From positions 6,561 through 70,560 of the forward strand of contig JBNGBT010000007.1 in assembly GCA_049903315.1 (NCBI GenBank): DNA of 64,000 nucleotides. Reading direction: 5' to 3'. Origin of the DNA: Candidatus Cloacimonadota bacterium. Lineage in GTDB: Bacteria; Cloacimonadota; Cloacimonadia; JGIOTU-2. The translations under genes and the position numbers were made by a program. A model generated the notes under the pieces. It saw only the letters and a program-made list of their open reading frames with translations. It ran no database searches and had not been told where the DNA came from. Shown piece after piece: positions 13,545-35,422 of this stretch (position 1 is the first letter of the stretch; every line of letters begins with the position of its first letter).

Positions 13545-13618
13545 TGGCTGGGGTGCAGGGATTCGAACCCCAATAGGCAGATCCAGAGTCTGCTGTCTTG
13601 CCATTAGACGACACCCCA
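13545..13618 (-). tRNA. tRNA-Gln (anticodon CUG)
   Basis: Reverse complement TGGGGTGTCGTCTAATGGCAAGACAGCAGACTCTGGATCTGCCTATTGGGGTTCGAATCCCTGCACCCCAGCCA; 7-bp acceptor with U1-A72, anticodon stem GCAGA/TCTGC, loop CTCTGGA, T-loop TTCGAAT, encoded CCA. Confidence 0.8.
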
Positions 13619-13630
13619 TGGTTAAAAAGT

Positions 13631-13705
13631 GGCTGGGTCGGGAGGATTCGAACCTCCGAATGCAGGGACCAAAACCCTGTGCCTTGCCGCTTGGCGACGA
13701 CCCAC
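13631..13705 (-). tRNA. tRNA-Gln (anticodon UUG)
   Basis: Reverse complement TGGGTCGTCGCCAAGCGGCAAGGCACAGGGTTTTGGTCCCTGCATTCGGAGGTTCGAATCCTCCCGACCCAGCCA; closely resembles bacterial tRNA-Gln; loop TTTTGGT gives anticodon TTG. Confidence 0.85.
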
Positions 13706-13717
13706 ATTTCTATAAAT

Positions 13718-13809
13718 GGCGGAGAGGCAGGGATTCGAACCCTGGGTAAGATGTTACTCCTACACACGCTTAGCAGGCGCGCACCTTAAGCCAACTCGGT
13801 CACCTCTCC
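13718..13809 (-). tRNA. tRNA-Ser (anticodon GCU)
   Basis: Reverse complement GGAGAGGTGACCGAGTTGGCTTAAGGTGCGCGCCTGCTAAGCGTG...GGTTCGAATCCCTGCCTCTCCGCCA; class II tRNA with a long variable arm; anticodon loop CTGCTAA. Confidence 0.85.
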
Positions 13810-13822
13810 AAAAAGAACAAAA

Positions 13823-13908
13823 TGGCGGAGGATGAGGGACTCGAACCCCCAAGGGCAGAGCCCGGCGGTTTTCAAGACCGCTGCCTTACCAATTAGGACT
13901 AATCCTCC
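13823..13908 (-). tRNA. tRNA-Ser (anticodon UGA)
   Basis: Reverse complement GGAGGATTAGTCCTAATTGGTAAGGCAGCGGTCTTGAAAACCGCCGGGCTCTGCCCTTGGGGGTTCGAGTCCCTCATCCTCCGCCA; anticodon stem GCGGT/ACCGC, loop CTTGAAA, long variable arm. Confidence 0.85.
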
Positions 13909-17012: not shown

Positions 17013-20000
17013 TTGAATAAAAAAAGAAAATCTATTATCGTTCTACTGGTGGGTATATTTGTTACATGCCCCTTATTCGGGGACTCGCTAATATCAGTAC
17101 TACGATCCTCTTTAGATAATCTTACTATAGAATTTACACTACCAGAATATGAAATTCAATCGAAGAACGATTTTACCTACATAGAATGTCCTGAACTGAA
17201 ACGTGAGGAGATCGAAGGAAAGATTGATCTTCCGTACTACTCTTTTCTGGTGGGTGTTCCTACAAACGGAAATGCGCAGGCATCAATTGTCTCTTCAGTG
17301 GATAGTTATTTTGAATTAACTTCACCAGTTACTCCTTTCCCAAAATTTATCAAAGACGAACAAAAGGGCACATACTCTCTTGTGTATGATATCAAACAAG
17401 ATATTTATTCACTTGAAACTTCAAAGGAAATTCTGGATATATCAGAACCTTACTTATGGAGACAACAAACAGTTATCAAAGTAGTTCTGCACCCTTTTAT
17501 CGTTGAAAATGAAAAACTCAAAATCATAAAAAATCTCAAACTCTCATTCTCGCTTAGCGGCAATAAAGCATCAAGACCATTTTATGATAAGAATTTTGAA
17601 CAAGTTTTTCAAAATACAATAATCAATTTTGATATAGCACAACATTGGAGTTCGGATAGAGAACTGAAAAAACAGGATAATCCATTCTCACACGCAGATA
17701 GGTGGTTCAAAATACCTATCACTGAAAATGGGATTTGCAAACTAACCAAGCAAAAATTGTCTGATGCAGGAATTGATGTGGATAATCTCGATCCTGATGA
17801 GATCAAGGTATTTAATGGCGGAGGATATTCACAGAGCCGATCAGTCTATTCAACATTATATCCCTTTGAAGAAGTGCCAGTTTTCATAACTGAGAGCGGT
17901 TCTGATTATACAATATATTTTTATGTGAGAAATACAAATGGCATCGAATTGAACGACAATTACGAACAATATTTTAATCCTTATACAGGCGAGAATACCT
18001 ACTGGCTCACTTATAATACTGATCTTGCTTCACGCCCCAATTATCATAACCAATATTCAAGCGATCTCACAAAACGTGAAACATTCACTACATATAGTTA
18101 TTCACAACATTTTGAAGAAGATCATGTGCGATCTGATCCGCTTATGATTGAATGGTACTGGCAAAGCTTTACAGGGAGCGGATCGAGCACAAAGTATTTT
18201 GATTTTACAGTTTCAGAACTCAATACAAATGAACCTCAAGAATTAACGATTAATTTTAACTACCGTCCTTATACTTATTATATAAAAACCTATCTAAACG
18301 ACGTGTTACTTGATGATTATGTATGGACATCCTCACACGTGACTTATACTGGAAATTTTCTTCAAAATGGAACAAATACTCTCAAGGTTGTTGAAACCAC
18401 TTCCGGTTCCCAGACCTTATATTTTGATTATTATGAAATAGCATATACAAAGAATCTCAAGATGGAGAATAATTATCTTGCATTTTCACTTCCTCAGGAA
18501 AATGTGGAGTATACTGTTCATGTTTCTAATGTTGCAAACAATGAACTTCAGATATTCAAATTACGTGATTTTTATCAGGCTTCAAAGATCACAAATTATG
18601 ATATTTCAGGAACTTCTCTTTCATTCAATGCTCTTTCGGACACTGCCGGAACGCAATTCTGCATTGTCAGTAATGGTGGATATATTATTCCTGATGTAGT
18701 TGAAGAAAAATTAGAGCCGCTTGTATATTTGAATGGCACAGAAATTCGTTCATACCTGAGGGATGAAATAACTCTTGCTAATACTGAAGCAATAATTATT
18801 ACCCCTGAACAATTTTGGGATAATGCCAAAGAGCTTGCCGATGTACATTATGCAAATGATAATTTGAATGTGCTTGTCGTGAAAATAAATGATATATATG
18901 ATGAATTTGCATGGGGCTTGGTAGATGTAGTTGCTGTAAGATATTTCCTAAATTATGGATATGACTATTATGCTTCGATTCCAGACAGACAGTTATCTTA
19001 TGTAGCCCTAATGGGCGATGGAACAAATGATTTCCGAGGGTATGAGCAGGGCTCTGTAGAAAAAAATAAAATTCTTCCTTTTGTAGAAGGAACAACTGCA
19101 TCTGATGATTATTTTGTTTATTTTATTACAAAACTTAATCCTTCATTAATGATAGGTCGTTTTCCAGGTTATACTGACTCTCAAATGGAGATCATGGTCG
19201 ATAAGACTGTTGATTTTATTTCAAATCCCGAATTTGGATATTGGCGTAATCGCGTGATTCTATGTGCAGATGATTTTCTTAAACAGGGACAAAACACCGA
19301 AACAGGTCACACAACTCATGCAGAAAGTTGTTCGCGAAGAATTGAAGCCAATGTCGAACTTCTGAAAAACTATGGAATCCGGTACCCTCTTGATGAATTC
19401 CAGAACCGTCCGGAAGCTAATGAAGATTTAATAAAGATGATCAATAATGGAGCCGGAATATTTTATTACATTGGACATGGCGGTTATGATGTCATCGGGG
19501 ACGAAGAATATTTTCGAGCAAGCAGGGATATTACAAAACTCACAAACGGGAATAGACTCAACTTCTTTCTTGCAGCATCATGCGATATAGGTTTGTTTGA
19601 CTCCAATACAATTGAGTCGATGGCTGAGCGTATGATGTACAGCAAGGACAAGGGCTCGATTGCTGTATTTGCTTCTGCCCGAAAAGGTGGATACGGACCG
19701 TGTTCTGATGTTGTATCGCTTGTAGTAAATCACACAGGTGAAAGCATTACAATAGGTCAAGCAGTAATAGCTTCAAAAGGGGGAGGAGCATCGAAATCAT
19801 ATGAGAAATACTTGCTTTTCGGGGATCCGATGTTGAGAACAGCTCTCCCTGCAATAAGGGGTAATATTACAATTCCAGAAGAATTTGTCGACTCACTTCA
19901 AGCACGTCAAACAGCTTCTTTGCAAGGAGTTATCGACACAACAGGATTTTTATTTGATGAAGTATTCAATGTAGCGTATGACACTGACTATATCGTCAAA

Positions 20001-20918
20001 TATCCTTATGATTATCGCGATCCTAACACGGGAATCTGGGAAATCAGATATCTTGGTGTTGTTGAAAAGGGAAAAGCGATTTTTAAAGGACCCGTTTCAT
20101 TGCAGAATAATAATTTTGATTTTGGTTTCATTGTTCCTGATGATGTATATGGCGGAAATGAAGGGCAGGTGTTAAGTTATTCTATTGGCACATCTATTGA
20201 AAATGATGTGGATGTAGCGTTGAGGTATAATAAACGGAATAATCCCGATGATCATGAACTTATTATAAATGGGTATGCAGAATCCGAAAATGACGGACCA
20301 CCTCAGATCACTATGTGGTTGGATAATGATGCTTTTAAAAACGGAGATTACGTGTCATCATCACCTCTTGTATATATAGAAATTCTTGATAGCAACGGTG
20401 TAAATATCACTAATTATCCCGGTCATCGAATTTTATTAACAGTAGATAATGAGGATGAGTATAATATCACAGAATATTTTGTATATGATTTGGATTCTTT
20501 TATTCAAGGATCGATCGAATATCAGTTAGAGTCAATACCAACGGGCACCCACACTTTACGATTGGAGGTCTTTGATAACCTGAACGAAGTAGCATTTTAT
20601 GATGTTGAGTTTAAGATTAAAAGCCCTGATAATATTGATGTGCGGACTGTGTTGAATTATCCAAATCCTATGGATGACCATACATATTTCACTTTCTATC
20701 TTGATGGTGATGCTTCTGTTGACATTGAGATATTTACTGTGGCTGGCAGAAAGATTAAAACAATAGATGATTTAATACTTCGCACGGGTTATAATCAGGT
20801 GTTGTGGAATGGCAAAGATGAAGATGGAGATGTTCCCTCAAATGGCGTATATTTTTATAAATTGAAAGTCAATGGGAAGACGATTGATGAAATCTTTAAG
20901 ATCATTATTTTCCATTAA
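17013..20918 (+). CDS. Peptidase C25 (gingipain-like) family protein with T9SS C-terminal sorting domain, 1301 aa
   Basis: TTG start 8 nt after rpsT; signal peptide; candidate catalytic dyad context FYYIGHGGYD ... FFLAASCDIGLFD as in C25 peptidases; C-terminal T9SS CTD (YPNPMDD...IEIFTVAGRKI...GVYFYKL). Confidence 0.7.
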   Translation: MNKKRKSIIVLLVGIFVTCPLFGDSLISVLRSSLDNLTIEFTLPEYEIQSKNDFTYIECPELKREEIEGKIDLPYYSFLVGVPTNGNAQASIVSSVDSYFELTSPVTPFPKFIKDEQKGTYSLVYDIKQDIYSLETSKEILDISEPYLWRQQTVIKVVLHPFIVENEKLKIIKNLKLSFSLSGNKASRPFYDKNFEQVFQNTIINFDIAQHWSSDRELKKQDNPFSHADRWFKIPITENGICKLTKQKLSDAGIDVDNLDPDEIKVFNGGGYSQSRSVYSTLYPFEEVPVFITESGSDYTIYFYVRNTNGIELNDNYEQYFNPYTGENTYWLTYNTDLASRPNYHNQYSSDLTKRETFTTYSYSQHFEEDHVRSDPLMIEWYWQSFTGSGSSTKYFDFTVSELNTNEPQELTINFNYRPYTYYIKTYLNDVLLDDYVWTSSHVTYTGNFLQNGTNTLKVVETTSGSQTLYFDYYEIAYTKNLKMENNYLAFSLPQENVEYTVHVSNVANNELQIFKLRDFYQASKITNYDISGTSLSFNALSDTAGTQFCIVSNGGYIIPDVVEEKLEPLVYLNGTEIRSYLRDEITLANTEAIIITPEQFWDNAKELADVHYANDNLNVLVVKINDIYDEFAWGLVDVVAVRYFLNYGYDYYASIPDRQLSYVALMGDGTNDFRGYEQGSVEKNKILPFVEGTTASDDYFVYFITKLNPSLMIGRFPGYTDSQMEIMVDKTVDFISNPEFGYWRNRVILCADDFLKQGQNTETGHTTHAESCSRRIEANVELLKNYGIRYPLDEFQNRPEANEDLIKMINNGAGIFYYIGHGGYDVIGDEEYFRASRDITKLTNGNRLNFFLAASCDIGLFDSNTIESMAERMMYSKDKGSIAVFASARKGGYGPCSDVVSLVVNHTGESITIGQAVIASKGGGASKSYEKYLLFGDPMLRTALPAIRGNITIPEEFVDSLQARQTASLQGVIDTTGFLFDEVFNVAYDTDYIVKYPYDYRDPNTGIWEIRYLGVVEKGKAIFKGPVSLQNNNFDFGFIVPDDVYGGNEGQVLSYSIGTSIENDVDVALRYNKRNNPDDHELIINGYAESENDGPPQITMWLDNDAFKNGDYVSSSPLVYIEILDSNGVNITNYPGHRILLTVDNEDEYNITEYFVYDLDSFIQGSIEYQLESIPTGTHTLRLEVFDNLNEVAFYDVEFKIKSPDNIDVRTVLNYPNPMDDHTYFTFYLDGDASVDIEIFTVAGRKIKTIDDLILRTGYNQVLWNGKDEDGDVPSNGVYFYKLKVNGKTIDEIFKIIIFH

Positions 20919-21195: not shown

Positions 21196-24045
21196 ATGAA
21201 AAAACTTATTGGATTAACGATCGTGGCCTTGTTCATTACCTCACTTGCATTTGCAGTTAATTATACAAGTGGAGAAATGAGCAAAGGAACACCTTCAAAC
21301 TTTGAATTACACCCGAACTATACTCCTGGTGAACAGATTCACAGAGTTGCACCTAAAAATGTAGACCCTTATCGTGACGCTCCAGATCCAGAAGGTGTTC
21401 AACTTTTATATTGGGAGAACTTTGAAACCGAAGATGACATTTGGTATTACGCTAATCTTTCTTATTACTGGGTTATTCCTGTTGAAGCTTCTGAGTTCGG
21501 AACTCGTTTTACTGCCTATAGATCCGGCGACCTTGTAGGTGCATGGTTCTATTGGTATACTGGAAATGGTGGAGACGCTGATGTTCATGTCTATGCAGAT
21601 GATGGCACTGGATATCCTGGTGCTGGTTTAGGCAGTGTTTCAGTCACACCAGTTCTTAACGACTGGAACTATGTAGATCTTTCTGGTCTTGGAATTTCTG
21701 TTGATCCCTCTGCGGACTTCTTTATCACCTATAGTGTAGAAGCTGGTGATACTCTTAGTATTCTTTCAGATGATGGCGCGACTACAAATAATCGTGCACT
21801 TGAAGTACTTCCTACACTCAAAGATTGGACCTATATGGTTAACGATTGGGGTGCAGACTACGAATGGTGCCTTGAAGCAATCATCGAGCACGACACAGAC
21901 CCCTGGGTTCCTGAGATTGCAGGCAGATGGCAGTGGGTCGATACAGATTATAACAGCCCCACTCATTCATGGTGGATTGCTGATGATACAGCATATCAAG
22001 GATACAACTGGCTCAGCTCTGAACCCTTTACTATAGGTGACGACTATGCTTTGGTCCAGGTAGATTACGCATATAGAAGCAGCTTACCTGAAGCAGTGTA
22101 TTCAGATGAATATTGGTCATTCTACATTGGAAATACAGCCGATGGTATTGATTGGCATGCGTCAACCTATAATGCTTATAACGCTGGCACATCTTGGTAT
22201 GGCGGCGATGAAGTAACTCATGAATACGGTACAAGCGCAATTTATTATTTGTACACACCAGATATCGATCTTACCACTGCTTGTGAAGCTACATTAACCT
22301 GTATGCTTGATTATGATACAGAAGCACCAGGCGGAGAAGACCCACCATTCAACGGTTGGGATGTTGCAAATGTTCAGATATCAACAGATGGCTGGGCAAC
22401 TAAAGGATTCCTTGAAGATCCTTCAAATCCTTATAATGTAACTATTGCTTTTGCCGGTTGGGCAAACACTTCACTTCCTGCAGACACATTGAGCTATCCC
22501 GGTTGGGGTGGTCCAAGTCCTGCCGGCTGGTTCGCAGCTACTTTCGATCTTGCTGCATACCTTGGTGAAACAGTTCAGATCCGTTTTGCTCTTGCATCAG
22601 ATCCGTATACTGTAGCTCAGGGATTCTGGGTTGATAATCTTGATATTACCGCAGATGGCTCAGTCATATTCTCAGATTATGATGAGACCAACTTAATTCC
22701 TGCCCCTCCAGTTGTTGTTCTTGAAGAGCTCGAATACCTGGATACTTATACTGATGAAGATTGGTATGTTACTGATAAATATGACATTTCAATGTACGCT
22801 GGCGAGGAAGTAATTCTTAAGATGAAAGCTACCCTTGCAGACGATGCTGGTTCCGGAGAAGGTTTCTGGTTCGATGACATCCAGATAACCGGAGCCAATC
22901 TTCCTGTTCATGATATGGCAGCAATGTTCAATGTAATGCCGTATGGTGCGACCGAAGGATGGGATTATAGTCCCGGTATCGTTTATGGAAATTACGGAAC
23001 AACAATCGAAGGTCCACAGCTTAGAATGGATAACCTTGATTATGGTACAACTCCATTCGATTATTACAATAACAATCCTCCAGCTATTGGCTATGGTGAA
23101 TTTGATCTCGCATGGCTCACTCAACTGACAGCACTTCCTGGCGCTGGCTGGTATGATTTCTGTGGTTGGACAGAGGTTGGTGGCGATGAAGATCCCACAA
23201 ATGACTCTACCTATTTCTGGGGTGTCGAAGTATATCCCGCAGGATGGGCAGAATTCGGTAATAACTCCAGAGTATGGAGTGAAGACTTTTATACTTCTGG
23301 ATACTGTGGAAACTGGTTTGATATCTTCGATGGTGCTCGTATGACATCATTTGATATCTATTCAGTTTGGACTCAGGTTATTAACTATGGTTCGACTGGT
23401 GATGTCGATACATGGACAGTTGAGATATTCGAAGCTGTCGATGACCTTACTCCCGGAGCAAGCCTATACTACGGTTCATTTGATTGTACCGGTATTGACG
23501 GTGATGACTTTGGCTGGGTTGAATTCGTTCTTCCTACTCCATTACACATTACCGGTAATGTCATAGTTATGATCGGTGGTGTTTGGGTTGGCGGGTCTCC
23601 TGGTGTTGATGCCAGCTACTTCCCTGCATTTGATAGCATGGTCAGAAACTACCTGGGTGTCGGTGCATACTATGGACACAGTGTGTACGGTACAGAAGGC
23701 GATCCTGCAACTTGGGGACATTCCTCAGGTGACCGTTTCGTCAACATCTATGGTCGCGTAGATTATGCTACAGGTCCTGATGTTCCTGGTGATGTGAGTT
23801 ATCTCAACCAGAACGTGCCAAATCCTGTCACAAATAATGCTACTATTAGTTACCATATAAAGGGCTCTCCAATGAACAATGCAGAGATCAAGATATATAA
23901 CGTACTTGGTCAGCTTGTTGATACAGTCCAGGGCGAGAATGGTATCGCTACCTGGAATCCTGGTGATGCACCTAATGGTGTCTATTTCTACAAAGTATCA
24001 TCCGACGACTTCACTTCAGTGAAGAAAATGATCCTTATGAGATAA
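21196..24045 (+). CDS. T9SS-secreted surface protein, Trp/Tyr/Asp/Gly-rich, 949 aa
   Basis: Strong RBS GGAGGAG; signal peptide; repeated blocks ending FWVDNLDIT / FWFDDIQIT; C-terminal T9SS CTD (VPNPVTNNATISY...IKIYNVLGQLV...GVYFYKV); GC content and codon usage visibly differ from neighbours. Confidence 0.8.
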   Translation: MKKLIGLTIVALFITSLAFAVNYTSGEMSKGTPSNFELHPNYTPGEQIHRVAPKNVDPYRDAPDPEGVQLLYWENFETEDDIWYYANLSYYWVIPVEASEFGTRFTAYRSGDLVGAWFYWYTGNGGDADVHVYADDGTGYPGAGLGSVSVTPVLNDWNYVDLSGLGISVDPSADFFITYSVEAGDTLSILSDDGATTNNRALEVLPTLKDWTYMVNDWGADYEWCLEAIIEHDTDPWVPEIAGRWQWVDTDYNSPTHSWWIADDTAYQGYNWLSSEPFTIGDDYALVQVDYAYRSSLPEAVYSDEYWSFYIGNTADGIDWHASTYNAYNAGTSWYGGDEVTHEYGTSAIYYLYTPDIDLTTACEATLTCMLDYDTEAPGGEDPPFNGWDVANVQISTDGWATKGFLEDPSNPYNVTIAFAGWANTSLPADTLSYPGWGGPSPAGWFAATFDLAAYLGETVQIRFALASDPYTVAQGFWVDNLDITADGSVIFSDYDETNLIPAPPVVVLEELEYLDTYTDEDWYVTDKYDISMYAGEEVILKMKATLADDAGSGEGFWFDDIQITGANLPVHDMAAMFNVMPYGATEGWDYSPGIVYGNYGTTIEGPQLRMDNLDYGTTPFDYYNNNPPAIGYGEFDLAWLTQLTALPGAGWYDFCGWTEVGGDEDPTNDSTYFWGVEVYPAGWAEFGNNSRVWSEDFYTSGYCGNWFDIFDGARMTSFDIYSVWTQVINYGSTGDVDTWTVEIFEAVDDLTPGASLYYGSFDCTGIDGDDFGWVEFVLPTPLHITGNVIVMIGGVWVGGSPGVDASYFPAFDSMVRNYLGVGAYYGHSVYGTEGDPATWGHSSGDRFVNIYGRVDYATGPDVPGDVSYLNQNVPNPVTNNATISYHIKGSPMNNAEIKIYNVLGQLVDTVQGENGIATWNPGDAPNGVYFYKVSSDDFTSVKKMILMR

Positions 24046-24059
24046 TAGATTACAAATAT

Positions 24060-24097
24060 AGCCCTACTTCGTTTATTCGGAGTGGGGCTTTTTTTTT
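24060..24097 (+). terminator. Rho-independent terminator after the 949-aa gene
   Basis: AGCCCTACTTCG / CGGAGTGGGGCT stem (12 bp with two G-U pairs), 6-nt loop, then T8. Confidence 0.7.
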
Positions 24098-24106: not shown

Positions 24107-25975
24107 ATGGAAAAAACTCCCACTAATAATTCATATAAAATTCAACCTCTGATTTATTTAATTGCGCTTCTAATTTTAATTAATCCATTATTCATTTCTG
24201 TTCAAAAATATCTTATTTTCTCAACAAAAATATTAATACAGCAGATATTTATCATAACTATACTTTTCGTATATTTAATAGCAAAGGATTACAAAAAGCT
24301 CAAACTTTCTTTTCCGGTAATTATAATTTCTACCTATATATTGTATCTTTTTGTACGAACATTGTTACAACCGGTTTCAGCGTTTGGATTTCAGCAGTTG
24401 TATTATCTCTTCCCTTATACATTACTTTTTATTATAATATTGCAGCTTCATATCAACGATAATGAAAAGATATTCTTAAGTAATAGCTTCCTTTTAAGTT
24501 TCATTATTTCGATCGCATTTGGTGTATTTTTACAGAACAAGTATTCCACTTTTTCAAATTTTTCCCGACTGCAATTGTCATGGGCAAATGCAAACTATCT
24601 CGCAAGCTATCTACTCGTCACAATTGGATTTATTCTCTATACATGGAAAAGCACAAAAAAGAAATGGATTCATATCACAGCATTGATAAGTCTGATAGCC
24701 GCACTCGCATTTTTGTTCTGGACACAATCCAGAGGGGGAATGCTCAGTCTCATTTTAGTGCTTCTTATTGTATACATCATTTATGCGATAAAAAAACAAA
24801 AAAAATTACATATATTTATTTCATTTACAATTTTGATACTTTTACTATTAAGTTTTAACTATGTTTTCAGAACAATACGTCCTCAGACAATTACATTTCG
24901 TGAGCGTGTCTATAAGGCAAATGTAGAATATATTAAACATAACTGGTTATTTGGAAGCGGATTAGGCACATTCATAAATGAATTCCCCCGATATAGACTC
25001 AAGGATTATAAACTCCTTGGACAGGAGGACATCATTTCTCATGCCCATAATGAATTCGTTGAGATATGGGTGGAAACAGGTATTCTCGGGCTTGCTTTAT
25101 TTATTGCCTTCCTCTTTGCGTTAATAAGACAATATAAAAGAAAAATACATTCAAAGGATAAATATTTTATCTATGTTACTGCATTCTCTCTCGTACTTTT
25201 ATTGATACATAATTTATTCTCCATCACGATGCGGATTCCGCCAATTCTCATCTATTTTTTTATTCTTGCAGGTTTTCTCTCAGCTGATTATTCCAAAGAA
25301 ACAGAAAAGGAAACCTACTCCATATCTAAATATATTTTGTTAGTATTTATTTTTGGTTTGGTAATCTGTGCGGTTAACCAATATCGAACTATCCGGGGAC
25401 TTGATCATTTCTCTAAATCAGAGAGTTATTACGCATCAAAAGACAATAAGTTGCTCCCAAATGCAATTCTTGAAGCTGAAATCGCACAAAAATTTATTCC
25501 AAATAATACAGACTTGCTCTATCATCAAGGATTGCTCTATACAATAAGTGAGAATCATTCAAGTGCACTTCAAACATATAAAATGCTGGAGCGAATTTCT
25601 CCAAACTATCCGCAACTCCATTTCTGGAAAGGCTATTTACTCTCTCTTTCTGGTGCGTGGACACTCTCAGTGAAAGAATATAAAAAAGAAATAAGGTATA
25701 ACGAATACCCGAAGGTTTATTTCAATTTGGCAATTGCATACCATTATCTTGCCGATGAGAGTAATTCGATGATGAATTTCCTGATCTTTGCAGAAAAAAT
25801 CAAGCAGAAAACGGAACGGCATCTTATAAAAGATAAAGACAGGATTATGAAAGAAGAGGGTAGGAATCTGAAATTTGCACTTGATAATCTGGCTAAATAT
25901 TACGAAGGCAATCAATCTATGATTGACAGAATTGATTATTTGAGACAGTATTTTTTTGCTGAAAACAGTAATTAA
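24107..25975 (+). CDS. O-antigen ligase (Wzy_C)-like polytopic membrane protein fused to C-terminal TPR repeats
   Basis: About 10 TM helices with a Wzy_C-like block (SHAHNEFVEIWVETGILGLALFIAFLFALI); C-terminal ~230 aa TPR-like. Confidence 0.65.
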   Translation: MEKTPTNNSYKIQPLIYLIALLILINPLFISVQKYLIFSTKILIQQIFIITILFVYLIAKDYKKLKLSFPVIIISTYILYLFVRTLLQPVSAFGFQQLYYLFPYTLLFIIILQLHINDNEKIFLSNSFLLSFIISIAFGVFLQNKYSTFSNFSRLQLSWANANYLASYLLVTIGFILYTWKSTKKKWIHITALISLIAALAFLFWTQSRGGMLSLILVLLIVYIIYAIKKQKKLHIFISFTILILLLLSFNYVFRTIRPQTITFRERVYKANVEYIKHNWLFGSGLGTFINEFPRYRLKDYKLLGQEDIISHAHNEFVEIWVETGILGLALFIAFLFALIRQYKRKIHSKDKYFIYVTAFSLVLLLIHNLFSITMRIPPILIYFFILAGFLSADYSKETEKETYSISKYILLVFIFGLVICAVNQYRTIRGLDHFSKSESYYASKDNKLLPNAILEAEIAQKFIPNNTDLLYHQGLLYTISENHSSALQTYKMLERISPNYPQLHFWKGYLLSLSGAWTLSVKEYKKEIRYNEYPKVYFNLAIAYHYLADESNSMMNFLIFAEKIKQKTERHLIKDKDRIMKEEGRNLKFALDNLAKYYEGNQSMIDRIDYLRQYFFAENSN

Positions 25976-29512: not shown

Positions 29513-30742
29513 ATGGGTAAAACAATTGTAGAAAAAATAATTCAGCTCCATTCTGAAGAAGAAGCCGTAGCTGGTAAGATAGTATGGATGAAACTCGATG
29601 TTCGTACTGCCCGTGATTTTGGCGGACCAAATGTGGTTAAAAATTTAGAAAAACACTATCCTGACGCAGAATTGCCGGACAAAGAAAACGTATTTTTTAC
29701 TTTCGATACTGTCGCACCTGCCAAAACAATTCCTTATGCAAATAATCAGCAAATTTGCCGTGAGTTTGCGAACAAGAACGGGCTCAAAGTTTATGATGTG
29801 GATGCAGGTATCGGCACACATATTCTTATGGAAAAAGGATTTGCACGACCCGGCAGAACTCTGGTCGGAACCGACAGCCATTTTAACATTCTTGGAGCAG
29901 TTAATGCTTTTGGACAAGGCATGGGTGATCAGGATATTGCATTCGGATTCAGTACAGGGAGAACATGGTTTGAAGTTCCGGAAACCATAAAAGTAAATCT
30001 TAAAGGCACATTCTCGTATCCTGCCACAGGGAAGGACCTTGTTCTCTACATTCTTAAAAGGATCGGCAGTAAAGGGGCACTTGGCAAATGTATTGAATAT
30101 TATGGTGAGTGCTTGCAGGATTTGACTTTTTCCGATTATATAACTTTGTGCAGCATGATGACTGAAATGGGTGGTATCGTTGCATTTCCCGAGCAAAATG
30201 CTCAAGTCAGTCAATGGCTGAAAGAACGAACAGGCGAAAATCTTCAATTCATTATTGCTGATAATGATGCTCAATATACTGAAGAAATTGAAATCGATGT
30301 TTCGGGATTACAACCTCAAATCGCATGCCCGCCAAAACCGGATAATGTTAAAGATGTTTCTGAACTTAAAGGATTAAAAGTCGGCTCAATTTTTGTGGGC
30401 TCTTGTACGAATGGTCGTATTGAGGATATGCGTTATCTTGCCGATATTCTGAAAGATAATCATGTTGCAGAAGGTATAATGCTTCGAGTCGTTCCTGCCA
30501 CACGAGAGGTTTATGGGCAAATGCTCAAAGAAGGTCTGATAGATATTCTTTTCAACGCCGGTGCTATTGTATCGAATCCGGGATGTGGCGGCTGTGCATC
30601 AGGACAGATTGGTATGACTGGTAAAGGTGAAGTTCAAATCTCTACATCAAATAGAAATTTCAAAGGCAAACAAGGTGATGGTGAAACCTATCTGGCAAGT
30701 CCTGTCACTGCAGCATTTGCCGCAATAAAAGGGGAGTTATAA
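29513..30742 (+). CDS. Aconitase-family hydro-lyase large subunit, archaeal-type LeuC/homoaconitase-like
   Basis: 409 aa; VGTDSHF, Fe-S cysteines in GSCTNGR and NPGCGGC, STSNRNFKGKQG; LeuC-like throughout. Confidence 0.85.
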   Translation: MGKTIVEKIIQLHSEEEAVAGKIVWMKLDVRTARDFGGPNVVKNLEKHYPDAELPDKENVFFTFDTVAPAKTIPYANNQQICREFANKNGLKVYDVDAGIGTHILMEKGFARPGRTLVGTDSHFNILGAVNAFGQGMGDQDIAFGFSTGRTWFEVPETIKVNLKGTFSYPATGKDLVLYILKRIGSKGALGKCIEYYGECLQDLTFSDYITLCSMMTEMGGIVAFPEQNAQVSQWLKERTGENLQFIIADNDAQYTEEIEIDVSGLQPQIACPPKPDNVKDVSELKGLKVGSIFVGSCTNGRIEDMRYLADILKDNHVAEGIMLRVVPATREVYGQMLKEGLIDILFNAGAIVSNPGCGGCASGQIGMTGKGEVQISTSNRNFKGKQGDGETYLASPVTAAFAAIKGEL

Positions 30743-30750
30743 ATAAACAT

Positions 30751-31977
30751 ATGAAGAACCTGTTTTTATTACTGCCACTGGTCATCGTTTTGTTTTCGTG
30801 CACACACAAAGACCAGGTTACCGAAATTGAAACTCCAGATCCCTACGATCATGTGTATGGAAAACTCAAAACCGGTAAATCACTTTATTCTATCCTTCTT
30901 GATAATGATATCTCCTATCAGGATGCATACAAAATCACAAAAGAGTTAAATACCCTTTATGATTTGAGATATTCACATCCAAATGATAGTTTTCATCTGA
31001 AGATTGATAGTCTCGGAGTTGTACAAATCATTGAATATTCTCCAAATAAAATTGATAAATATATTGTTGCCCGGGATTCGACTGATGAATTTGACGTATT
31101 TCAGGAGAAGCTTGTGCTTGAAAAAGATATCCTGTTACATACGACTATTCTGAAATCATCTCTCTATGAAACATTAGTTGATGGAGGATTAGATCCGCAA
31201 TTGGTTATGAAGTTCAGTGATATTTTTCAGTGGGATATTGATTTTTTTATTGATCCCCGCGAAGGTGACACCTGCTCTATAATATATGAAGCTTTCAGTC
31301 ATGATGGGGAAATCCTGAAATATGGAAATATTTTGGGAGCATCTTACCAAGGTAAACTCTTTGATCTCACTGCTTATTACTATGATAACGGCGGGAAAGA
31401 GCACGGATATTACGCCCGTGATGGTGAATCCTTCCAAAAAGCATTCCTGCGATCTCCATTAAATTACTCATACATCAGCTCATATTTTGGAATGCGGCTT
31501 CATCCGATAACAAAACAGGTATGGTTACACAGCGGTGTAGATTATGCTGCACCTCTTGGAACTCCTGTTGTCAGTTCCGCAGATGGAACAGTAATTCATA
31601 AAGGCTGGAAGGGTGGACATCCCACGCCAAAAGGAAACACCGGAGGTTATGGCAACACTGTGATGATCCGCCATACTAACGGTTTTAAAACACTCTATGG
31701 CCACTTGAATGCGTATGCCAGAAATCTCTACGTCGGCAAACGGGTGCTTCAGGGAGAAGTGATAGGGTATGTTGGCTCAACCGGTTGGTCCACAGGTCCA
31801 CACTTGCATTACACGATCTATCAGCATGATAGCCCAATTGATCCTCTCTCACTAAATAATGTTTCGGGTCCTCCCATCCCAAAAGAATATTTGGATGAAT
31901 TCATGGATTCTGTACATCATATTGACACACTCTTCAAAGAATCGAGAAAAACGTTTCTGCAATCAATTTTTGGATAA
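30751..31977 (+). CDS. M23 family metallopeptidase lipoprotein
   Basis: Lipobox LFSC; M23 motifs HSGVDYAAP, GYGNTVMIRH, HLHYTIY. Confidence 0.8.
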   Translation: MKNLFLLLPLVIVLFSCTHKDQVTEIETPDPYDHVYGKLKTGKSLYSILLDNDISYQDAYKITKELNTLYDLRYSHPNDSFHLKIDSLGVVQIIEYSPNKIDKYIVARDSTDEFDVFQEKLVLEKDILLHTTILKSSLYETLVDGGLDPQLVMKFSDIFQWDIDFFIDPREGDTCSIIYEAFSHDGEILKYGNILGASYQGKLFDLTAYYYDNGGKEHGYYARDGESFQKAFLRSPLNYSYISSYFGMRLHPITKQVWLHSGVDYAAPLGTPVVSSADGTVIHKGWKGGHPTPKGNTGGYGNTVMIRHTNGFKTLYGHLNAYARNLYVGKRVLQGEVIGYVGSTGWSTGPHLHYTIYQHDSPIDPLSLNNVSGPPIPKEYLDEFMDSVHHIDTLFKESRKTFLQSIFG

Positions 31978-32066
31978 AATGAACATGTTTGGAAAAATAG
32001 AGCATCTTAGGGATTTAATAAGCAAAAAATTTGACAGTTTATCAAGAGGAGCACGTTTTATCTATA

Positions 32067-32582
32067 ATGCAAAAGAATTGTAAAATAACTGGTAAGATTT
32101 GGCTCATTATTGACTATCAAAATACTCTTATTAATGACATTGACACTGATATGATATTTCATAATCAGTATCTTGCAATCACGGATATCAATAAAATGGG
32201 GCAATATACTTTTGATAATCTCGATGGTTGGAAAGATTTTTCACATAAAGCTCAGAAAGGTGATATCGTTGTAGTTGGGAAAAATTTTGGTGCAGGATCC
32301 TCACGGCAGCAAGCTGTAGATTGCTTTGCATCTCTTGGTATTCAAGCCATTCTCGCAGAATCCTTTGGAGCAATCTATAAAAGGAATGCTATTAACTCAG
32401 GATTACCAATCTTAACTATTACAGATATTGATCTTTCAAAACTATCACAACGGGAAGAGATCACTATTGACCTTAAAAAGGGAACTGTTTCAAATCCACA
32501 CATTCGGATTGAACCATTTTCTAAAGTACAACTTGATATTTATCAAGCAGGCAATTTGTTTGCTTTTGGCAAAAGAAATTAG
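32067..32582 (+). CDS. Aconitase-family hydro-lyase small subunit, archaeal-type LeuD-like
   Basis: KITGKIW N-terminus and GKNFGAGSSRQQAV ... AESFGAIYKRNAIN typical of short LeuD. ATG at 32067 preferred over the TTG at 32031 used by the listed ORF. Confidence 0.8.
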   Translation: MQKNCKITGKIWLIIDYQNTLINDIDTDMIFHNQYLAITDINKMGQYTFDNLDGWKDFSHKAQKGDIVVVGKNFGAGSSRQQAVDCFASLGIQAILAESFGAIYKRNAINSGLPILTITDIDLSKLSQREEITIDLKKGTVSNPHIRIEPFSKVQLDIYQAGNLFAFGKRN

Positions 32583-32617: not shown

Positions 32618-35422
32618 GTGAAAGTTTGTAGTAAATTTGGACTATTACTTTTGATGTTCATGCTGCTACTGGTGAGTTCTGCATTTGGGATATTGCTTCC
32701 CAATAATGAACCTGTTGAAGGGCTGAGAGTTGAAGATGTTCCTCATGATGATGGTGGAGGGCTCATGCTGAGCTGGAAGCCTCTCCCAAAAGAAAAGCGC
32801 ATCATTGAATACCGTATTTACCGCGGCTATACTCCCGATAGTTTATTCTATATCGGAAAGATCCCGGTAGATGCCAAAACAGGTGTTGCAGCTGATACAA
32901 TGAGATATATTGATCAGGGTTGGACATTTTTTGTCGATGCAACCTCACATGCCAAGCTGAAACATGAAAAGGGGCAGAAAAAAGGAACAATAGGAGCAGA
33001 AGTGCTCTTTCGTACCGTTCCTCGTGACATGAAAATCTATGGTCCTATGATGGATCATTATCGCATGCTTGCCGTTATCCCTGATAAAGAATATGTTTAT
33101 CACACGAAGATGAGAGAGTTCACTGATATTGATACAACTGAGGATGGCACTATTGATACGACATCTACGATTCTTGCAGGAATGAAACTTGAGCAGGTCA
33201 AGTATATTCTTACTAAACTGACAGTTGGTAAAGACTATTATTATGCAATTCAAGCACTCAATATGAACCGTAGTGCATCACCTCTTTCTGAAATAGCAAC
33301 TGGACAAACGGTCGATGATCCTCCAGAAAAATTAAAAGAATTCTATGCAGTTGCTGTGACCGATAAGGAGCAGCTTCAGTTCGAATGGTCGTTGCCAGTA
33401 TTTACTTCCGACCAAAAACAATTTAATATTTACCTTTATGATGAATTCGATGATCAGCATCTTATATTTACCCGTCCGGATGCATATCCATACACTCCCC
33501 AGACCAATGCTATTGTTCCTTTCGATTCTATCGCAGCACGTTTTGAAGCATTTAATTCCGCAAATATGAAGTGGTATAAATTCAATATCGGAGAACAGGA
33601 TAGACAGGATCAGGAAACCCTTGCAAAAGATGAACCTATCCCAGCTGAAATCATCACTTCTTCTATGCTGCCCAAACCTCCTATTCATTTCACCGTAAAA
33701 GATCAGCCAAATGATAAAGGTGATCAATTGCAGGTTTTCTTTGGATATCCATATTATGGTCTTTCAAAATTATCCTATAATGATGCTTTTACAAAACTGA
33801 CGGTTAATTATTTCATTACTGAAAATTCCATGTACGAAGTAGACCGACTTATCCTTTCAATCAATGGAATAACGAAAACTGAATATGTGCTTGATAATAA
33901 ACTCGATTTCAAGGTCAATTGGGATTATAGTAAGCCAATGAAGATCACAGGAAGTTTTGTCTGTAAACATAAAGGACAAGCACCCTTACCGGAAGATTAT
34001 ACAATAACTCATACCTTTATTTTTGATCAGGAAATGCAGGTGGTCCTCGTTGACACTCCTCCTAATGAGCAGATGAAGGAATTTGAAGATTATTACTTCC
34101 AAGTTTACAAGATAAATCATACAAGTGATGTGTATAGATATGCAAAACAGATGTCTTTTAGAGAGCGGGAATATATAGATAAAGTGTCATATGAAACCGT
34201 TCAATTTCGTGGAAGACCCCGTTTCTCTCTCGAAGAAAAGCGACTTTATTTCAGTACATATTTAAGCATTGAAAATTATAAAGATCAGTATCCCTTCTAC
34301 ACTCAAGCGCTCTATCTCGATCAACTCAAACAACAGGATGAAGAAATTAAAGAAGAAATCGCAAAACTACAAGCAGAGTTAGAAACCGAAACTGATAAAG
34401 TAGAGATAGAGAAAATTGAAGATCGTATAGATCTTTTCACTGATTATCTTAATGAAAAACCAGCGATCGTCAAAGAAGCAAATCTCTTAAATACTGATAA
34501 AGAAAGAATGAAAATGCTCTATGATGTTCATTGCAAAAATATTCGTTCTTTCAAATATTATATCAGAAAGACTGACGGACGAGGGCACTTTATCGATACT
34601 CCTGTATATACAGATCCTAATGGCGAACAGTATATCTCTCCCAAACAGAATTGGTTCAACACTGATGAAATAATCACTTTCATTGCAGTGCTTTTATTTG
34701 GAGCGCTCGTGTACTTTATGATCAAAGCAGCGCGCAAAGGAAAGAGGTTATATATCAGACCTATCGCAGGTATTCAGGAGATTGATAATGCGATTGGACG
34801 AGCTACAGAAATGGGAAGACCAATCCTCTTCGTTCCAGGTTTAAGCGGCATCAGTGACGTGGCAACACTTGCAGGATTAGCGATTCTTAGCAAAGTTGCG
34901 AAGAAAGCTGCTGAATACGACACAAAAATACTCGTTCCATGCCGCGATTTCATCGTACTTCCTATTGCTCAGGAAACTGTAAAAGAAGCACACTATGAAG
35001 CTGGTCGTCCTGATACGTATGATAAAAACAGCGTATTCTTCATCACACAAGCACAGTTCGCTTTTGTAGCTGGTGTGAACGGCATAATGATTCGTGAAAA
35101 AACAGCAACGAACTTCTATATGGGAATGTTCTGGGCTGAATCTCTTCTTATGACAGAAACCGGAAGTATGACAGGTGCAATTCAGATTGCTGGAACTGAT
35201 GCAGTCAATCAGCTGCCTTTCTTCATCACAACATGTGACTATACTCTTATTGGCGAAGAACTCTATGCAGCAAGCGCTTATCTCTCAAATCAACCGCTGA
35301 TTCTTGGTACTCTCAAAGCTCAAGACTATATGAAACTGATTATTGTTCTTACCGTGATCCTTGGCACTATCCTCTCAACTGTTCACCTTACGTTCTTTAT
35401 GAACTGGTTCCCGACCAAATAG
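32618..35422 (+). CDS. Hypothetical large envelope protein (signal peptide, FN3-like region, C-terminal TM segments), 934 aa
   Basis: GTG start with RBS AAAGGAG; signal peptide; hydrophobic segments near the C-terminus; no family recognised. Confidence 0.55.
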   Translation: MKVCSKFGLLLLMFMLLLVSSAFGILLPNNEPVEGLRVEDVPHDDGGGLMLSWKPLPKEKRIIEYRIYRGYTPDSLFYIGKIPVDAKTGVAADTMRYIDQGWTFFVDATSHAKLKHEKGQKKGTIGAEVLFRTVPRDMKIYGPMMDHYRMLAVIPDKEYVYHTKMREFTDIDTTEDGTIDTTSTILAGMKLEQVKYILTKLTVGKDYYYAIQALNMNRSASPLSEIATGQTVDDPPEKLKEFYAVAVTDKEQLQFEWSLPVFTSDQKQFNIYLYDEFDDQHLIFTRPDAYPYTPQTNAIVPFDSIAARFEAFNSANMKWYKFNIGEQDRQDQETLAKDEPIPAEIITSSMLPKPPIHFTVKDQPNDKGDQLQVFFGYPYYGLSKLSYNDAFTKLTVNYFITENSMYEVDRLILSINGITKTEYVLDNKLDFKVNWDYSKPMKITGSFVCKHKGQAPLPEDYTITHTFIFDQEMQVVLVDTPPNEQMKEFEDYYFQVYKINHTSDVYRYAKQMSFREREYIDKVSYETVQFRGRPRFSLEEKRLYFSTYLSIENYKDQYPFYTQALYLDQLKQQDEEIKEEIAKLQAELETETDKVEIEKIEDRIDLFTDYLNEKPAIVKEANLLNTDKERMKMLYDVHCKNIRSFKYYIRKTDGRGHFIDTPVYTDPNGEQYISPKQNWFNTDEIITFIAVLLFGALVYFMIKAARKGKRLYIRPIAGIQEIDNAIGRATEMGRPILFVPGLSGISDVATLAGLAILSKVAKKAAEYDTKILVPCRDFIVLPIAQETVKEAHYEAGRPDTYDKNSVFFITQAQFAFVAGVNGIMIREKTATNFYMGMFWAESLLMTETGSMTGAIQIAGTDAVNQLPFFITTCDYTLIGEELYAASAYLSNQPLILGTLKAQDYMKLIIVLTVILGTILSTVHLTFFMNWFPTK

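What the first reader, a model, noticed from the sequence alone, without database searches (positions are those of the whole stretch)
24107..25975. Wzy_C (O-antigen ligase-like)-TPR fusion immediately downstream of the surface protein
Wzy_C-domain proteins include protein O-oligosaccharyltransferases (PglL/PilO type) as well as WaaL ligases. A polytopic Wzy_C protein with a C-terminal TPR domain, starting 10 nt after the surface-protein terminator, could glycosylate or attach that protein or other T9SS cargo.
Basis: inference. Interest (0 to 1): 0.4.

Follow-up and report, generated by a model that had tools for sequence, protein, structure and literature searches.

The report
Glycan transferase wired to surface-protein gene
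A membrane enzyme of the O-antigen-ligase/protein-glycosylase superfamily, carrying an extra protein-binding (TPR) domain on its outer face, is always encoded directly after one major secreted surface-protein gene in Cloacimonadota bacteria, so it probably decorates or helps anchor that protein, but sequence alone cannot say which.

Summary
ORF 24107-25975 (+) encodes a 622-aa protein with a Wzy_C domain (82.5 bits against a cut-off of 31.7) and a TPR domain that passes Pfam's cut-off when scanned alone. Its best structural match is the WaaL ligase 7TPG, and the Arg/Arg/His catalytic set is conserved. A 13th membrane helix places the TPR domain in the periplasm.

In every Cloacimonadota locus with upstream sequence, the gene follows an acidic ~950-aa T9SS cargo gene with a MAM domain. 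The two are separated by a conserved terminator, and porU usually lies upstream. The pair survives a rearrangement that removed both other neighbours. However, the cargo body has been swapped among at least three types without any matching change in the enzyme.

The Wzy_C-TM13-TPR build itself is widespread in other phyla, next to pilin genes, polysaccharide genes or housekeeping genes, and never next to T9SS cargo there.

My best reading (0.42) is a periplasmic protein O-oligosaccharyltransferase acting on this and perhaps other T9SS cargo. The close rival (0.33) is a WaaL-type ligase making the LPS anchor used by PorU. The acceptor remains undecided. I rate it a new variant of a known kind, of moderate interest.

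The parts
24107..25975 (+). Gene for a 622-aa Wzy_C-TM13-TPR enzyme (stop codon included)
   Evidence: ORF. Pfam Wzy_C 82.5 bits. Orthologs at 38-90% identity. AF2 model pLDDT 84.5, pTM 0.83. dN/dS 0.14-0.16.
24689..25105 (+). Wzy_C domain (aa 195-333), spanning TM7-TM10 and the catalytic loop
   Evidence: Foldseek top hit is WaaL 7tpg_B, E 1.8e-5, TM-score (target) 0.50.
24869..25069 (+). Large periplasmic loop (aa 255-321) with invariant R258, R265, R267, H312, H314, N315, E316
   Evidence: Invariant columns in 21 orthologs. R209, R265, H314, N315, E316 and E323 are nearly invariant across the wider family. HAHNEFVE aligns with HAHNDIVE of C. metallidurans WaaL. These correspond to E. coli WaaL R215/R288/H338 and PglL R224/R298/H349 as listed in PMC3643930; that residue mapping is an inference from motif and spacing.
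25319..25375 (+). Extra 13th transmembrane helix (aa 405-423), continued as a stalk helix to aa 443
   Evidence: Hydropathy and K/R-rich cytoplasmic loops. AF2 helix 408-443 with pLDDT 78-94. The 413-aa WaaL chain ends about 14 residues after the position aligned to aa 393.
25376..25972 (+). C-terminal TPR domain (aa 424-622), predicted periplasmic
   Evidence: TPR_11 at 30.2 bits passes the gathering score. Profile hits to consensus TPR and OGT. Foldseek hits to OGT, MamA and CTPR. Four helices follow the periplasmic catalytic loop, so the chain returns to the periplasm (inference).
24060..24097 (+). Intrinsic terminator between the cargo and enzyme genes; the enzyme ATG lies 9 nt after the T-run
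   Evidence: The equivalent hairpin is conserved in L001, L005, L006, L010, L011 and L012.
21196..24045 (+). Partner gene: a 949-aa acidic T9SS cargo with MAM domains, the putative substrate or co-functioning surface protein
   Evidence: InhA-like_MAM 4.9e-16 and Por_Secre_tail 6.6e-10. TIGR04183. Net charge -109 with K+R 3.1%. Present upstream of the enzyme gene in every locus with upstream sequence.
23818..24033 (+). Type A T9SS C-terminal sorting domain of the cargo (aa 875-946)
   Evidence: It is 91% identical to the CTD of L015, although the protein bodies are only 21% identical.
17013..20918 (+). porU (T9SS sortase), two genes upstream and part of the usual syntenic block
   Evidence: NCBIfam NF033707 at 533.9 bits against a cut-off of 420. 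Adjacent in most loci but not in L005.

Best explanation
The gene encodes an inner-membrane enzyme of the Wzy_C (WaaL/PglL) superfamily. Enzymes of this kind take a pre-assembled glycan from undecaprenyl-pyrophosphate at the periplasmic face and transfer it to an acceptor.

Shown here: the fold, the conserved Arg/Arg/His catalytic set, and an added 13th helix carrying a C-terminal TPR domain. The periplasmic location of that domain is inferred from topology.

Inferred: the acceptor is protein. I think the enzyme works as an O-oligosaccharyltransferase that glycosylates the highly expressed MAM-domain T9SS cargo encoded just upstream, and probably other periplasmic T9SS cargo, before export through the T9SS. 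The TPR domain would hold the polypeptide near the active-site cleft, as the C-terminal periplasmic domain of PglS/PglL is proposed to do. The enzyme would be expressed at a low level by read-through of the cargo gene's terminator. Because the cargo body is swapped without any change in the enzyme, recognition must rest on a generic feature, such as a short sequon, an unfolded segment or the conserved CTD, and not on the body of one particular cargo.
For: Catalytic module:
- Wzy_C scores above threshold.
- WaaL 7TPG is the best hit both by structure and by sequence among solved structures.
- R209, R265, H314, N315 and E316 are invariant or nearly invariant.

Architecture:
- The core is followed by an extra TM helix and a periplasmic domain that the solved WaaL lacks.
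- Characterised O-OTases share this build. PglS has a C-terminal periplasmic domain forming a cleft (PMC12800693). PglL's C-terminal domain is periplasmic (PMC12645811). The S-layer OTase WsfB has Wzy_C plus a C-terminal TPR (PMC2943079).
- TfpW is a polytopic transferase with a periplasmic C-terminal TPR, encoded directly downstream of its pilin substrate (bioRxiv 10.1101/2020.04.19.049825).

Genetic coupling:
- A cargo gene lies directly upstream in all loci with upstream sequence.
- The pair is retained in L005 after loss of both other neighbours.
- The terminator is conserved, and in the window, L001, L010, L011 and L012 the T-run is followed by only 6-9 nt before the ATG, too short for a promoter. 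In L005 and L006 the gap after the hairpin is longer (about 20-30 nt).
- OTase genes placed next to their target genes are an established pattern (PMC3643930, PMC12645811).

Other points:
- Relatives in other phyla sit directly after prepilin genes: L030, preceded by a kinase and sigma54 regulator, plus L035, L040 and L052.
- There are no LPS-core or O-antigen genes within -24 kb or +38 kb of the gene.
Against: - No acceptor has been shown.
- PglL_A and Wzy_C_2 are absent even at E<=10.
- The enzyme and its TPR domain do not co-vary with cargo type: 90% against 35%, 91% against 37%, and conversely 49% against 79%.
- The mutase gene downstream is almost as syntenic as the cargo gene, so part of the adjacency may be plain conserved gene order.
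- The wider Wzy_C-TPR family also sits beside Wzz-like PCP genes, GT2 genes, mlaEFD or housekeeping genes. TPR therefore does not by itself imply a protein acceptor.
- The cargo shows no clear sequon enrichment or Ser/Thr-rich linker.
- I could not check whether the genome holds a separate WaaL.
Confidence: 0.42

Rival explanations
1. WaaL-type ligase for the T9SS anchor. The enzyme would ligate an Und-PP-linked polysaccharide to lipid A-core, or to another lipid anchor. This would make the LPS form, analogous to A-LPS, onto which PorU transfers type A CTD cargo. In this reading porU, the major cargo gene and the ligase gene form an attachment module, and the TPR domain contacts other envelope proteins and not the acceptor.
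For: - WaaL is the closest solved structure.
- porU lies two genes upstream in most loci.
- In Bacteroidota, T9SS cargo is covalently anchored to LPS through a linking sugar, and that pathway varies between species (PMC11969387).
- The enzyme is indifferent to cargo type, as expected if it serves all cargo.
- It is single-copy per genome in the GTDB scan.
- In L008 the ortholog heads a cluster for modified amino sugars: epimerase, CapK-like ligase, GT2, acetyltransferase, WbqC and DegT.
- One distant relative overlaps mlaE.
Against: - There is no WaaL equivalog hit. The best NCBIfam hit is a 'putative O-glycosylation ligase' model, far below its cut-off.
- The extra TM13 and TPR domain are absent from the solved WaaL.
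- In L005 the pair stays together without porU.
- The window holds no LPS genes.
- Transcriptional dependence on one cargo gene is odd for a housekeeping LPS enzyme.
Confidence: 0.33
2. Polysaccharide polymerase or exopolysaccharide-assembly enzyme. In this reading it is a Wzy-like enzyme whose TPR domain scaffolds periplasmic export partners, and its position next to the cargo gene has no functional meaning.
For: - Weak NCBIfam hits to an oligosaccharide repeat-unit polymerase and to TuaE.
- In the wider family, some members are flanked by GNVR/AAA_31 co-polymerase genes, GT2 genes, ABC-2 genes or a second Wzy_C gene.
- TPR scaffolds are known in polysaccharide export (cited in PMC2943079).
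Against: - No Wzx, Wzz, OPX or glycosyltransferase genes lie near the gene in the window or in most Cloacimonadota loci.
- The pair persists through rearrangement.
- The HAHNE ligase/OTase-type motif and the WaaL-like structure fit transfer at least as well as polymerisation.
Confidence: 0.12
3. Inherited gene order only. The enzyme has some unrelated envelope role, and its adjacency to the cargo gene reflects slow genome rearrangement within a narrow clade.
For: The whole block from rpsT through porU, the cargo gene, the enzyme gene, the mutase, tryptophanase and aconitase-family genes to M23 is syntenic in most loci, and it includes clearly unrelated metabolic genes.
Against: - L005 lost both flanks yet kept the pair.
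- L010 and L011 lost the mutase gene but kept the pair.
- The terminator-to-ATG spacing is conserved.
- Cargo cassettes were replaced precisely between porU and the enzyme gene.
Confidence: 0.1

Closest known systems
WaaL O-antigen ligase (Cupriavidus metallidurans, PDB 7TPG/7TPJ; E. coli WaaL)
   Same: It shares the Wzy_C fold. It is the best structural hit (E 1.8e-5, TM-score on target 0.50) and the best sequence hit among solved structures. The HAHN(E/D) motif is shared, and the Arg/Arg/His set is conserved.
   Different: Sequence identity is only 13%. The present protein adds a 13th TM helix and a roughly 200-aa periplasmic TPR domain. It is not in an LPS locus, and it matches no WaaL equivalog model.
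PglL / PglS O-oligosaccharyltransferases (Neisseria, Acinetobacter)
   Same: They have a WaaL-like core plus a C-terminal periplasmic domain next to the active site (PMC12800693, PMC12645811). PglS, TfpO and TfpM genes lie next to their substrate genes (PMC3643930, PMC12645811).
   Different: The PglL_A and Wzy_C_2 domains are not detectable here. The C-terminal domain is a TPR array. The neighbouring gene is a T9SS cargo and not a pilin.
WsfB, the S-layer protein tyrosine O-OTase of Paenibacillus alvei
   Same: It is described as Wzy_C plus a C-terminal TPR motif acting on the major surface-layer protein (PMC2943079; bioRxiv 10.1101/2020.05.20.105809).
   Different: It is Gram-positive, and its gene lies inside the S-layer glycan biosynthesis cluster. 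I could not test the sequence relationship because no WsfB sequence was available.
TfpW of Pseudomonas aeruginosa
   Same: It is a 646-aa polytopic transferase with a periplasmic C-terminal TPR domain, encoded immediately downstream of its substrate gene pilA (bioRxiv 10.1101/2020.04.19.049825). The gene layout and domain logic are the same.
   Different: Its catalytic fold is different (ArnT/Emb-like GT-C and not Wzy_C), and it uses a different donor (D-Araf).
Porphyromonas gingivalis WaaL and the A-LPS pathway for T9SS cargo anchoring
   Same: A Wzy_C-family ligase is functionally required for surface attachment of type A CTD cargo by PorU. That requirement is from my own knowledge of the P. 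gingivalis literature. The LPS-linking-sugar chemistry is described in PMC11969387.
   Different: Here the gene is physically coupled to porU and to a cargo gene, and it carries a TPR domain. No LPS involvement has been shown.

Membership tests
Wzy_C superfamily (PF04932; WaaL/PglL/Wzy-like GT-C enzymes) | Match to the Wzy_C HMM above the curated threshold | tested here: met
   82.5 bits against 31.7.
Wzy_C superfamily (PF04932; WaaL/PglL/Wzy-like GT-C enzymes) | Polytopic membrane protein with a large periplasmic loop carrying conserved Arg/Arg/His | tested here: met
   13 predicted TM helices. R209, R265 and H314 are invariant or nearly invariant. The motif aligns to WaaL.
Wzy_C superfamily (PF04932; WaaL/PglL/Wzy-like GT-C enzymes) | WaaL-like three-dimensional fold | tested here: met
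   Foldseek top hit is 7tpg_B, probability 1.00, E 1.8e-5.
WaaL lipid A-core O-antigen ligase | Match to a curated WaaL equivalog model | tested here: not met
   No WaaL model among the NCBIfam hits. All five hits fall far below their cut-offs.
WaaL lipid A-core O-antigen ligase | Core-only architecture without a C-terminal periplasmic domain | tested here: not met
   TM13 plus the TPR domain (aa 405-622) extend beyond the end of the 413-aa WaaL chain.
WaaL lipid A-core O-antigen ligase | Location in or near LPS core or O-antigen gene clusters | tested here: inconclusive
   None in the 64-kb window or in most ortholog loci. L008 has an amino-sugar cluster downstream.
WaaL lipid A-core O-antigen ligase | Transfers O-antigen to lipid A-core | not testable with these tools
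   This needs complementation of a waaL mutant or an LPS analysis.
PglL/PglS-class O-OTase | PglL_A (PF15864) and Wzy_C_2 (PF11846) domains | tested here: not met
   No hit even at E<=10. TfpO and TfpM OTases also lack these domains (PMC12645811).
PglL/PglS-class O-OTase | C-terminal periplasmic domain after a 13th TM helix | tested here: met
   though the domain here is a TPR array. Compared with PMC12800693.
PglL/PglS-class O-OTase | Transfers Und-PP-glycan to Ser/Thr of a protein | not testable with these tools
   This needs a glycosylation assay or glycoproteomics.
Substrate-adjacent OTases (TfpO/PilO, PglS, TfpM, TfpW) | Gene immediately downstream of, and co-oriented with, the substrate structural gene | tested here: met
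   61-nt spacer and the same strand in the window. The arrangement is conserved in all informative loci. The neighbour is a T9SS cargo and not a pilin.
WsfB-type S-layer O-OTase | Wzy_C plus a C-terminal TPR | tested here: met
   The WsfB architecture is as described in PMC2943079.
WsfB-type S-layer O-OTase | Sequence orthology to WsfB, and location in an S-layer glycan cluster | not tested
   No WsfB sequence was available, and the window contains no glycan cluster.
Wzy O-antigen/EPS polymerase | Associated Wzx flippase, Wzz/PCP and glycosyltransferase genes | tested here: not met
   Absent from the window and from the Cloacimonadota loci. Present beside some distant relatives.

The most novel reading that the evidence does not exclude
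The Wzy_C-TM13-TPR family, which has full-length members in Bacteroidota MAGs (P0085) as well as in Cloacimonadota, could be the protein O-oligosaccharyltransferase of the FCB-group general O-glycosylation system. That enzyme was still reported as unidentified in 2022 (PMC8729774). In this reading the TPR domain would capture T9SS-bound or periplasmic proteins, possibly through the conserved CTD. Cloacimonadota would then show the link openly by hard-wiring the gene to their major T9SS surface protein.
Probability: 0.1. Interest if true: 0.8.

Novelty: new variant of a known kind. Interest (0 to 1): 0.4.

Why it matters
T9SS surface proteins in Bacteroidota carry two kinds of glycan: internal O-glycans and a C-terminal LPS anchor. 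As of the 2022 paper I read, the O-glycan transferase had not been identified. Outside Bacteroidota the anchoring chemistry is unknown.

This locus gives one concrete candidate enzyme with a defined partner protein in a sister phylum. Both readings, protein O-OTase and anchor ligase, can be tested in E. coli glyco-engineering strains. An OTase with a TPR substrate-capture domain could also be useful for bioconjugate production.

The swappable cargo cassette between two conserved genes marks this protein as a diversifying surface antigen of an abundant and poorly characterised anaerobic-digester and sediment phylum.

Tried and rejected
1. Cargo structure. The AF2 model of the 949-aa protein, built from 12 sequences, had pLDDT 50.5 and pTM 0.35. 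I did not use it for a fold search.
2. Bacteroidota sequon D[ST][AILVMT]. The cargo has 0.2-0.8 per 100 aa, no different from other secreted proteins in the window. This was uninformative.
3. Co-variation of the enzyme or its TPR domain with cargo type. The result was negative, so I rejected the idea of a TPR tailored to this cargo body.
4. Horizontal-transfer signal. The gene's low GC (0.319) comes from codon positions 1 and 2. Its GC3 of 0.31 equals that of the neighbours, so I rejected this.
5. Reciprocal test. Distant cargo homologs in Electryonea and Marinimicrobia have no Wzy_C-TPR neighbour. The pairing is specific to Cloacimonadota.
6. Literature. I found no paper on T9SS glycosylation in Cloacimonadota or on this protein.
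7. The broad alignment A3 was too diverse to seed a collection scan, so I used the narrower A4.
8. A second Wzy_C gene in the same genome. I could not search for one, because the tools fetch only about 10 kb around a match.
9. Promoter scan. No sigma70-like site lies between 23471 and the ATG on the + strand. The promoter type of this phylum is unknown, so this is weak evidence.
Full report
**Observation.** The window is from a member of Candidatus Cloacimonadota. All close homologs and all 16 GTDB loci carry that label. ORF 24107-25975 (+) is intact and encodes 622 aa. Pfam assigns Wzy_C at residues 195-333 (E 3.5e-23, 82.5 bits against 31.7). TPR_11 scores 26.3 bits on the whole protein against a gathering score of 26.8. 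Scanned on the C-terminal 211 residues alone it scores 30.2 bits and passes. A profile of 21 orthologs matches consensus TPR proteins, SPINDLY and OGT over residues 445-573.

The upstream gene (21196-24045) has InhA-like MAM domains and a type A T9SS sorting domain. A 12-pair hairpin at 24060-24089 followed by a T-run separates the two genes. The enzyme's ATG lies 9 nt after the T-run. The description is therefore correct.

**Anatomy of the protein.** Hydropathy and the positive-inside pattern give 13 membrane helices. K/R-rich loops at 60-66, 182-188, 229-235 and 341-354 face the cytoplasm, and the large loop at 255-321 faces the periplasm. The AlphaFold2 model is confident (pLDDT 84.5, pTM 0.83). 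It shows four helices after that loop: 316-346, 353-371, 378-392 and 408-443. The chain therefore returns to the periplasm, where nine further helices (447-617) form the TPR array.

The best match among solved structures is the WaaL ligase 7TPG, by Foldseek (E 1.8e-5, TM-score on target 0.50), by profile search (E 5.9e-7) and by phmmer. HAHNEFVE (312-319) aligns with HAHNDIVE of WaaL. That 413-residue chain ends about 14 residues after the position aligned with residue 393. TM13 and the TPR domain are therefore additions to the WaaL core.

R209, R258, R265, R267, H312, H314, N315 and E316 are invariant in the orthologs. R209, R265, H314, N315, E316 and E323 stay invariant or nearly invariant across relatives only about 20% identical. 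These correspond to the Arg/Arg/His set needed in E. coli WaaL and conserved in PglL (PMC3643930); the residue-by-residue mapping is my inference from motif and spacing. The gene is under purifying selection (dN/dS 0.14-0.16). Its low GC reflects amino-acid composition, because its GC3 equals that of the neighbours.

**Gene context in the window.** The gene order is rpsT, porU (NF033707, 533.9 bits against 420), the MAM cargo gene, the enzyme gene, then methylmalonyl-CoA mutase subunits, tryptophanase, an aconitase-family large subunit, an M23 peptidase and the small subunit. No glycosyltransferase, sugar-nucleotide, LPS-core, Wzx or Wzz gene occurs anywhere in the 64 kb. Three other T9SS cargo genes are present (3834-5285 on +, 43629-45980 and 46038-48812 on -). 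None has a Wzy_C partner.

**Conservation of the pairing.** I fetched 25 Cloacimonadota loci. Every locus with upstream sequence has a MAM/CTD cargo gene directly upstream of the enzyme gene. Most keep the whole block from porU through the cargo and enzyme genes to the mutase.

The informative exceptions are these:
- **L005** (enzyme 38% identical): an RND efflux operon lies upstream and tldD downstream, with neither porU nor the mutase, yet the pair is kept.
- **L010 and L011**: the mutase gene is lost but the pair is kept.
- **L008**: the contig ends 23 nt upstream of the gene. Downstream lies a cluster for modified amino sugars, with an epimerase, a CapK-like ligase, a GT2, an acetyltransferase, WbqC and DegT.

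The terminator hairpin is conserved in the window, L001, L005, L006, L010, L011 and L012. In the window, L001, L010, L011 and L012 the ATG follows the T-run within 6-9 nt, which leaves no room for a promoter after the terminator. In L005 and L006 the gap after the hairpin is longer, about 20-30 nt. Expression by read-through, or from a promoter inside the 3' end of the cargo gene, is an inference.

From the cargo side, the family is essentially confined to Cloacimonadota. Its distant homologs in Electryonea and Marinimicrobia have no such neighbour.

**A result that constrains the mechanism.** Cargo and enzyme have different histories:

| Locus pair | Enzyme identity | TPR identity | Cargo identity |
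|---|---|---|---|
| L011 vs L014 | 90% | 92% | 35% |
| L018 vs L019 | 91% | 84% | 37% |
| L011 vs L019 | 49% | 52% | 79% |

L015 carries a third body type, 21% identical to the window's, joined to a CTD that is 91% identical. The type B replacement brought its own CTD and terminator. The cargo slot is thus a recombination hot spot between two conserved genes. The enzyme does not track the cargo body.

All cargo types share an extreme composition: net charge about -90 to -116, K+R about 3-5%, and high Trp, Tyr, Gly and Asp. When the cargo is of the same type, the enzyme is the fastest-evolving gene of the block. Between the window and L001 the identities are enzyme 46%, porU 62%, cargo 77% and mutase 83%.

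**How special is the architecture?** It is not special. An exhaustive profile search found 269 cluster representatives at E<=1e-30. More than a hundred of them, 550-750 aa long, match profile positions of about 16-565 in one collinear stretch. Named members come from Auribacterota, Zixibacteria and Bacteroidota MAGs and are annotated as 'O-antigen ligase/TPR'. The window protein aligns with the Auribacterota member at 27% identity over 439 residues, through the TPR region.

Contexts in the wider family are mixed:
- **L030:** histidine kinase, sigma54 regulator, prepilin (MNMKRTKKGFTLIELLVV...), then the enzyme gene. This is the pilS-pilR-pilA-OTase layout. One caveat is that such pseudopilins can be highly paralogous.
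- **L031 and the Bacteroidota locus L033:** housekeeping genes.
- **L032:** the gene overlaps mlaE.
- **L009:** two GT2 genes follow.

I also took a census of 57 distinct full-length relatives from metagenomes. Among close co-directional upstream neighbours, prepilins account for 3 of 30, VanZ for 3 of 30 and Wzz-like GNVR/AAA_31 proteins for 2 of 30. Among downstream neighbours, GT2 accounts for 4 of 29, a second Wzy_C gene for 4 of 29 and ABC-2 permeases for 2 of 29. No T9SS sorting domain appears among the frequent families. The family is therefore functionally heterogeneous, or at least serves several pathways, and the cargo pairing is a Cloacimonadota feature.

**Interpretation.** It is shown that this is a Wzy_C-superfamily enzyme with an intact catalytic set. 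Its added TPR domain is predicted, from topology, to lie in the periplasm. Its gene is stably placed behind the terminator of a major T9SS cargo gene. The acceptor is not shown.

I favour a protein O-oligosaccharyltransferase (0.42), for three reasons:
- Characterised enzymes with a WaaL-like core plus a C-terminal periplasmic domain are protein OTases: PglL, PglS and WsfB (PMC12800693, PMC12645811, PMC2943079).
- A gene placed just downstream of a structural surface-protein gene is the hallmark of TfpO, PglS, TfpM and TfpW (PMC3643930, PMC12645811, bioRxiv 10.1101/2020.04.19.049825).
- The pair survives loss of porU.

The lack of co-variation means that recognition would have to be generic, through a short sequon, an unfolded segment or the CTD.

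The close rival (0.33) is a WaaL-type ligase that builds the LPS form to which PorU attaches cargo (PMC11969387). It is favoured by the proximity of porU, by indifference to cargo type and by single-copy status. It is weakened by the extra domain, by the lack of any WaaL model hit and by the L005 arrangement. A polymerase role (0.12) and mere inherited adjacency (0.10) remain possible.

**Membership.** The protein is a member of the Wzy_C superfamily; all its defining features were tested and met. It is not a demonstrable member of the WaaL equivalogs or of the PglL/PglS class, because PglL_A and Wzy_C_2 are absent. It resembles WsfB and TfpW in architecture and gene layout only.

**Verdict.** The fusion itself is common. 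What is new is its fixed coupling to a swappable T9SS surface-protein cassette next to porU in Cloacimonadota. I rate it a new variant of a known kind, with interest 0.4.

Noticed in passing
window 21196-24045; loci L011, L015, L019, L006, L007: The cargo gene between porU and the enzyme gene is a replacement hot spot with at least three body types. L015 combines a foreign body (21% identity) with a lineage-typical CTD (91% identity), so the breakpoint lies at the body/CTD junction. Type B brought its own CTD and terminator. This looks like diversification of a surface antigen or phage receptor.
   Followed up: partly
window 21196-24045: The cargo protein is extremely acidic and poor in Lys and Arg (net charge -109, K+R 3.1%) and rich in Trp (4.2%), Tyr, Gly and Asp. 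It has no HEXXH motif despite its InhA-like MAM domains. The AF2 model is all-beta but of low confidence (pLDDT 50.5).
   Followed up: partly
L030 7262-9902; L035, L040, L052: In Auribacterota and other uncultured lineages, a full-length Wzy_C-TPR relative lies directly downstream of a prepilin-type gene. In L030 that gene is preceded by a histidine kinase and a sigma54 response regulator. These are candidate pilin O-OTases carrying a TPR domain.
   Followed up: partly
L008 2207-11850: In one Cloacimonadota ortholog locus the enzyme gene heads a sugar-modification cluster: epimerase/dehydratase, MaoC dehydratase, HpcH lyase, CapK-like ligase, LPG_synthase_TM, GT2, hexapeptide transferase, WbqC and DegT. 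This could be the source of the donor glycan.
   Followed up: no
L003 9973-10001; L007 3014-3046: The start codons called for the orthologs P0029 and P0023 fall inside or beside the conserved terminator hairpin. P0029's 629-aa form has an N-terminal extension that the other orthologs lack, and P0023's 536-aa form is truncated relative to the ~620-aa orthologs. These are probably mis-called starts.
   Followed up: partly
window 3834-5285 (+), 43629-45980 (-), 46038-48812 (-): Three further T9SS type A CTD cargo genes lie in the window. One has a beta-helix/NosD-like domain, and 3138-3821 just upstream of the first has a weak beta-helix hit. None is paired with a glycan enzyme.
   Followed up: no
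window 29513-32582: The genes for the large and small subunits of an aconitase/isopropylmalate-dehydratase-family enzyme are split by an M23 peptidase gene (30751-31977). This arrangement is conserved across Cloacimonadota loci.
   Followed up: no
window 8650-11556 (-) and 56503-59535 (+): There are two paralogous 'MutL protein' (PF13941) genes. One is fused to a weak biotin/lipoyl-like region and the other is followed by a gene with such a region. Their function is unknown.
   Followed up: no
window 13545-13908 (-); 462-1079 (+): A tRNA cluster (Gln-CTG, Gln-TTG, Ser-GCT, Ser-TGA) and an IS200-like Y1 transposase gene are present.
   Followed up: no
window 32618-35422: A 934-aa protein with a C-terminal DUF6754 domain (E 2.8e-120) is followed by two conserved ORFs that have no Pfam family. 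It is syntenic in all long Cloacimonadota loci.
   Followed up: no
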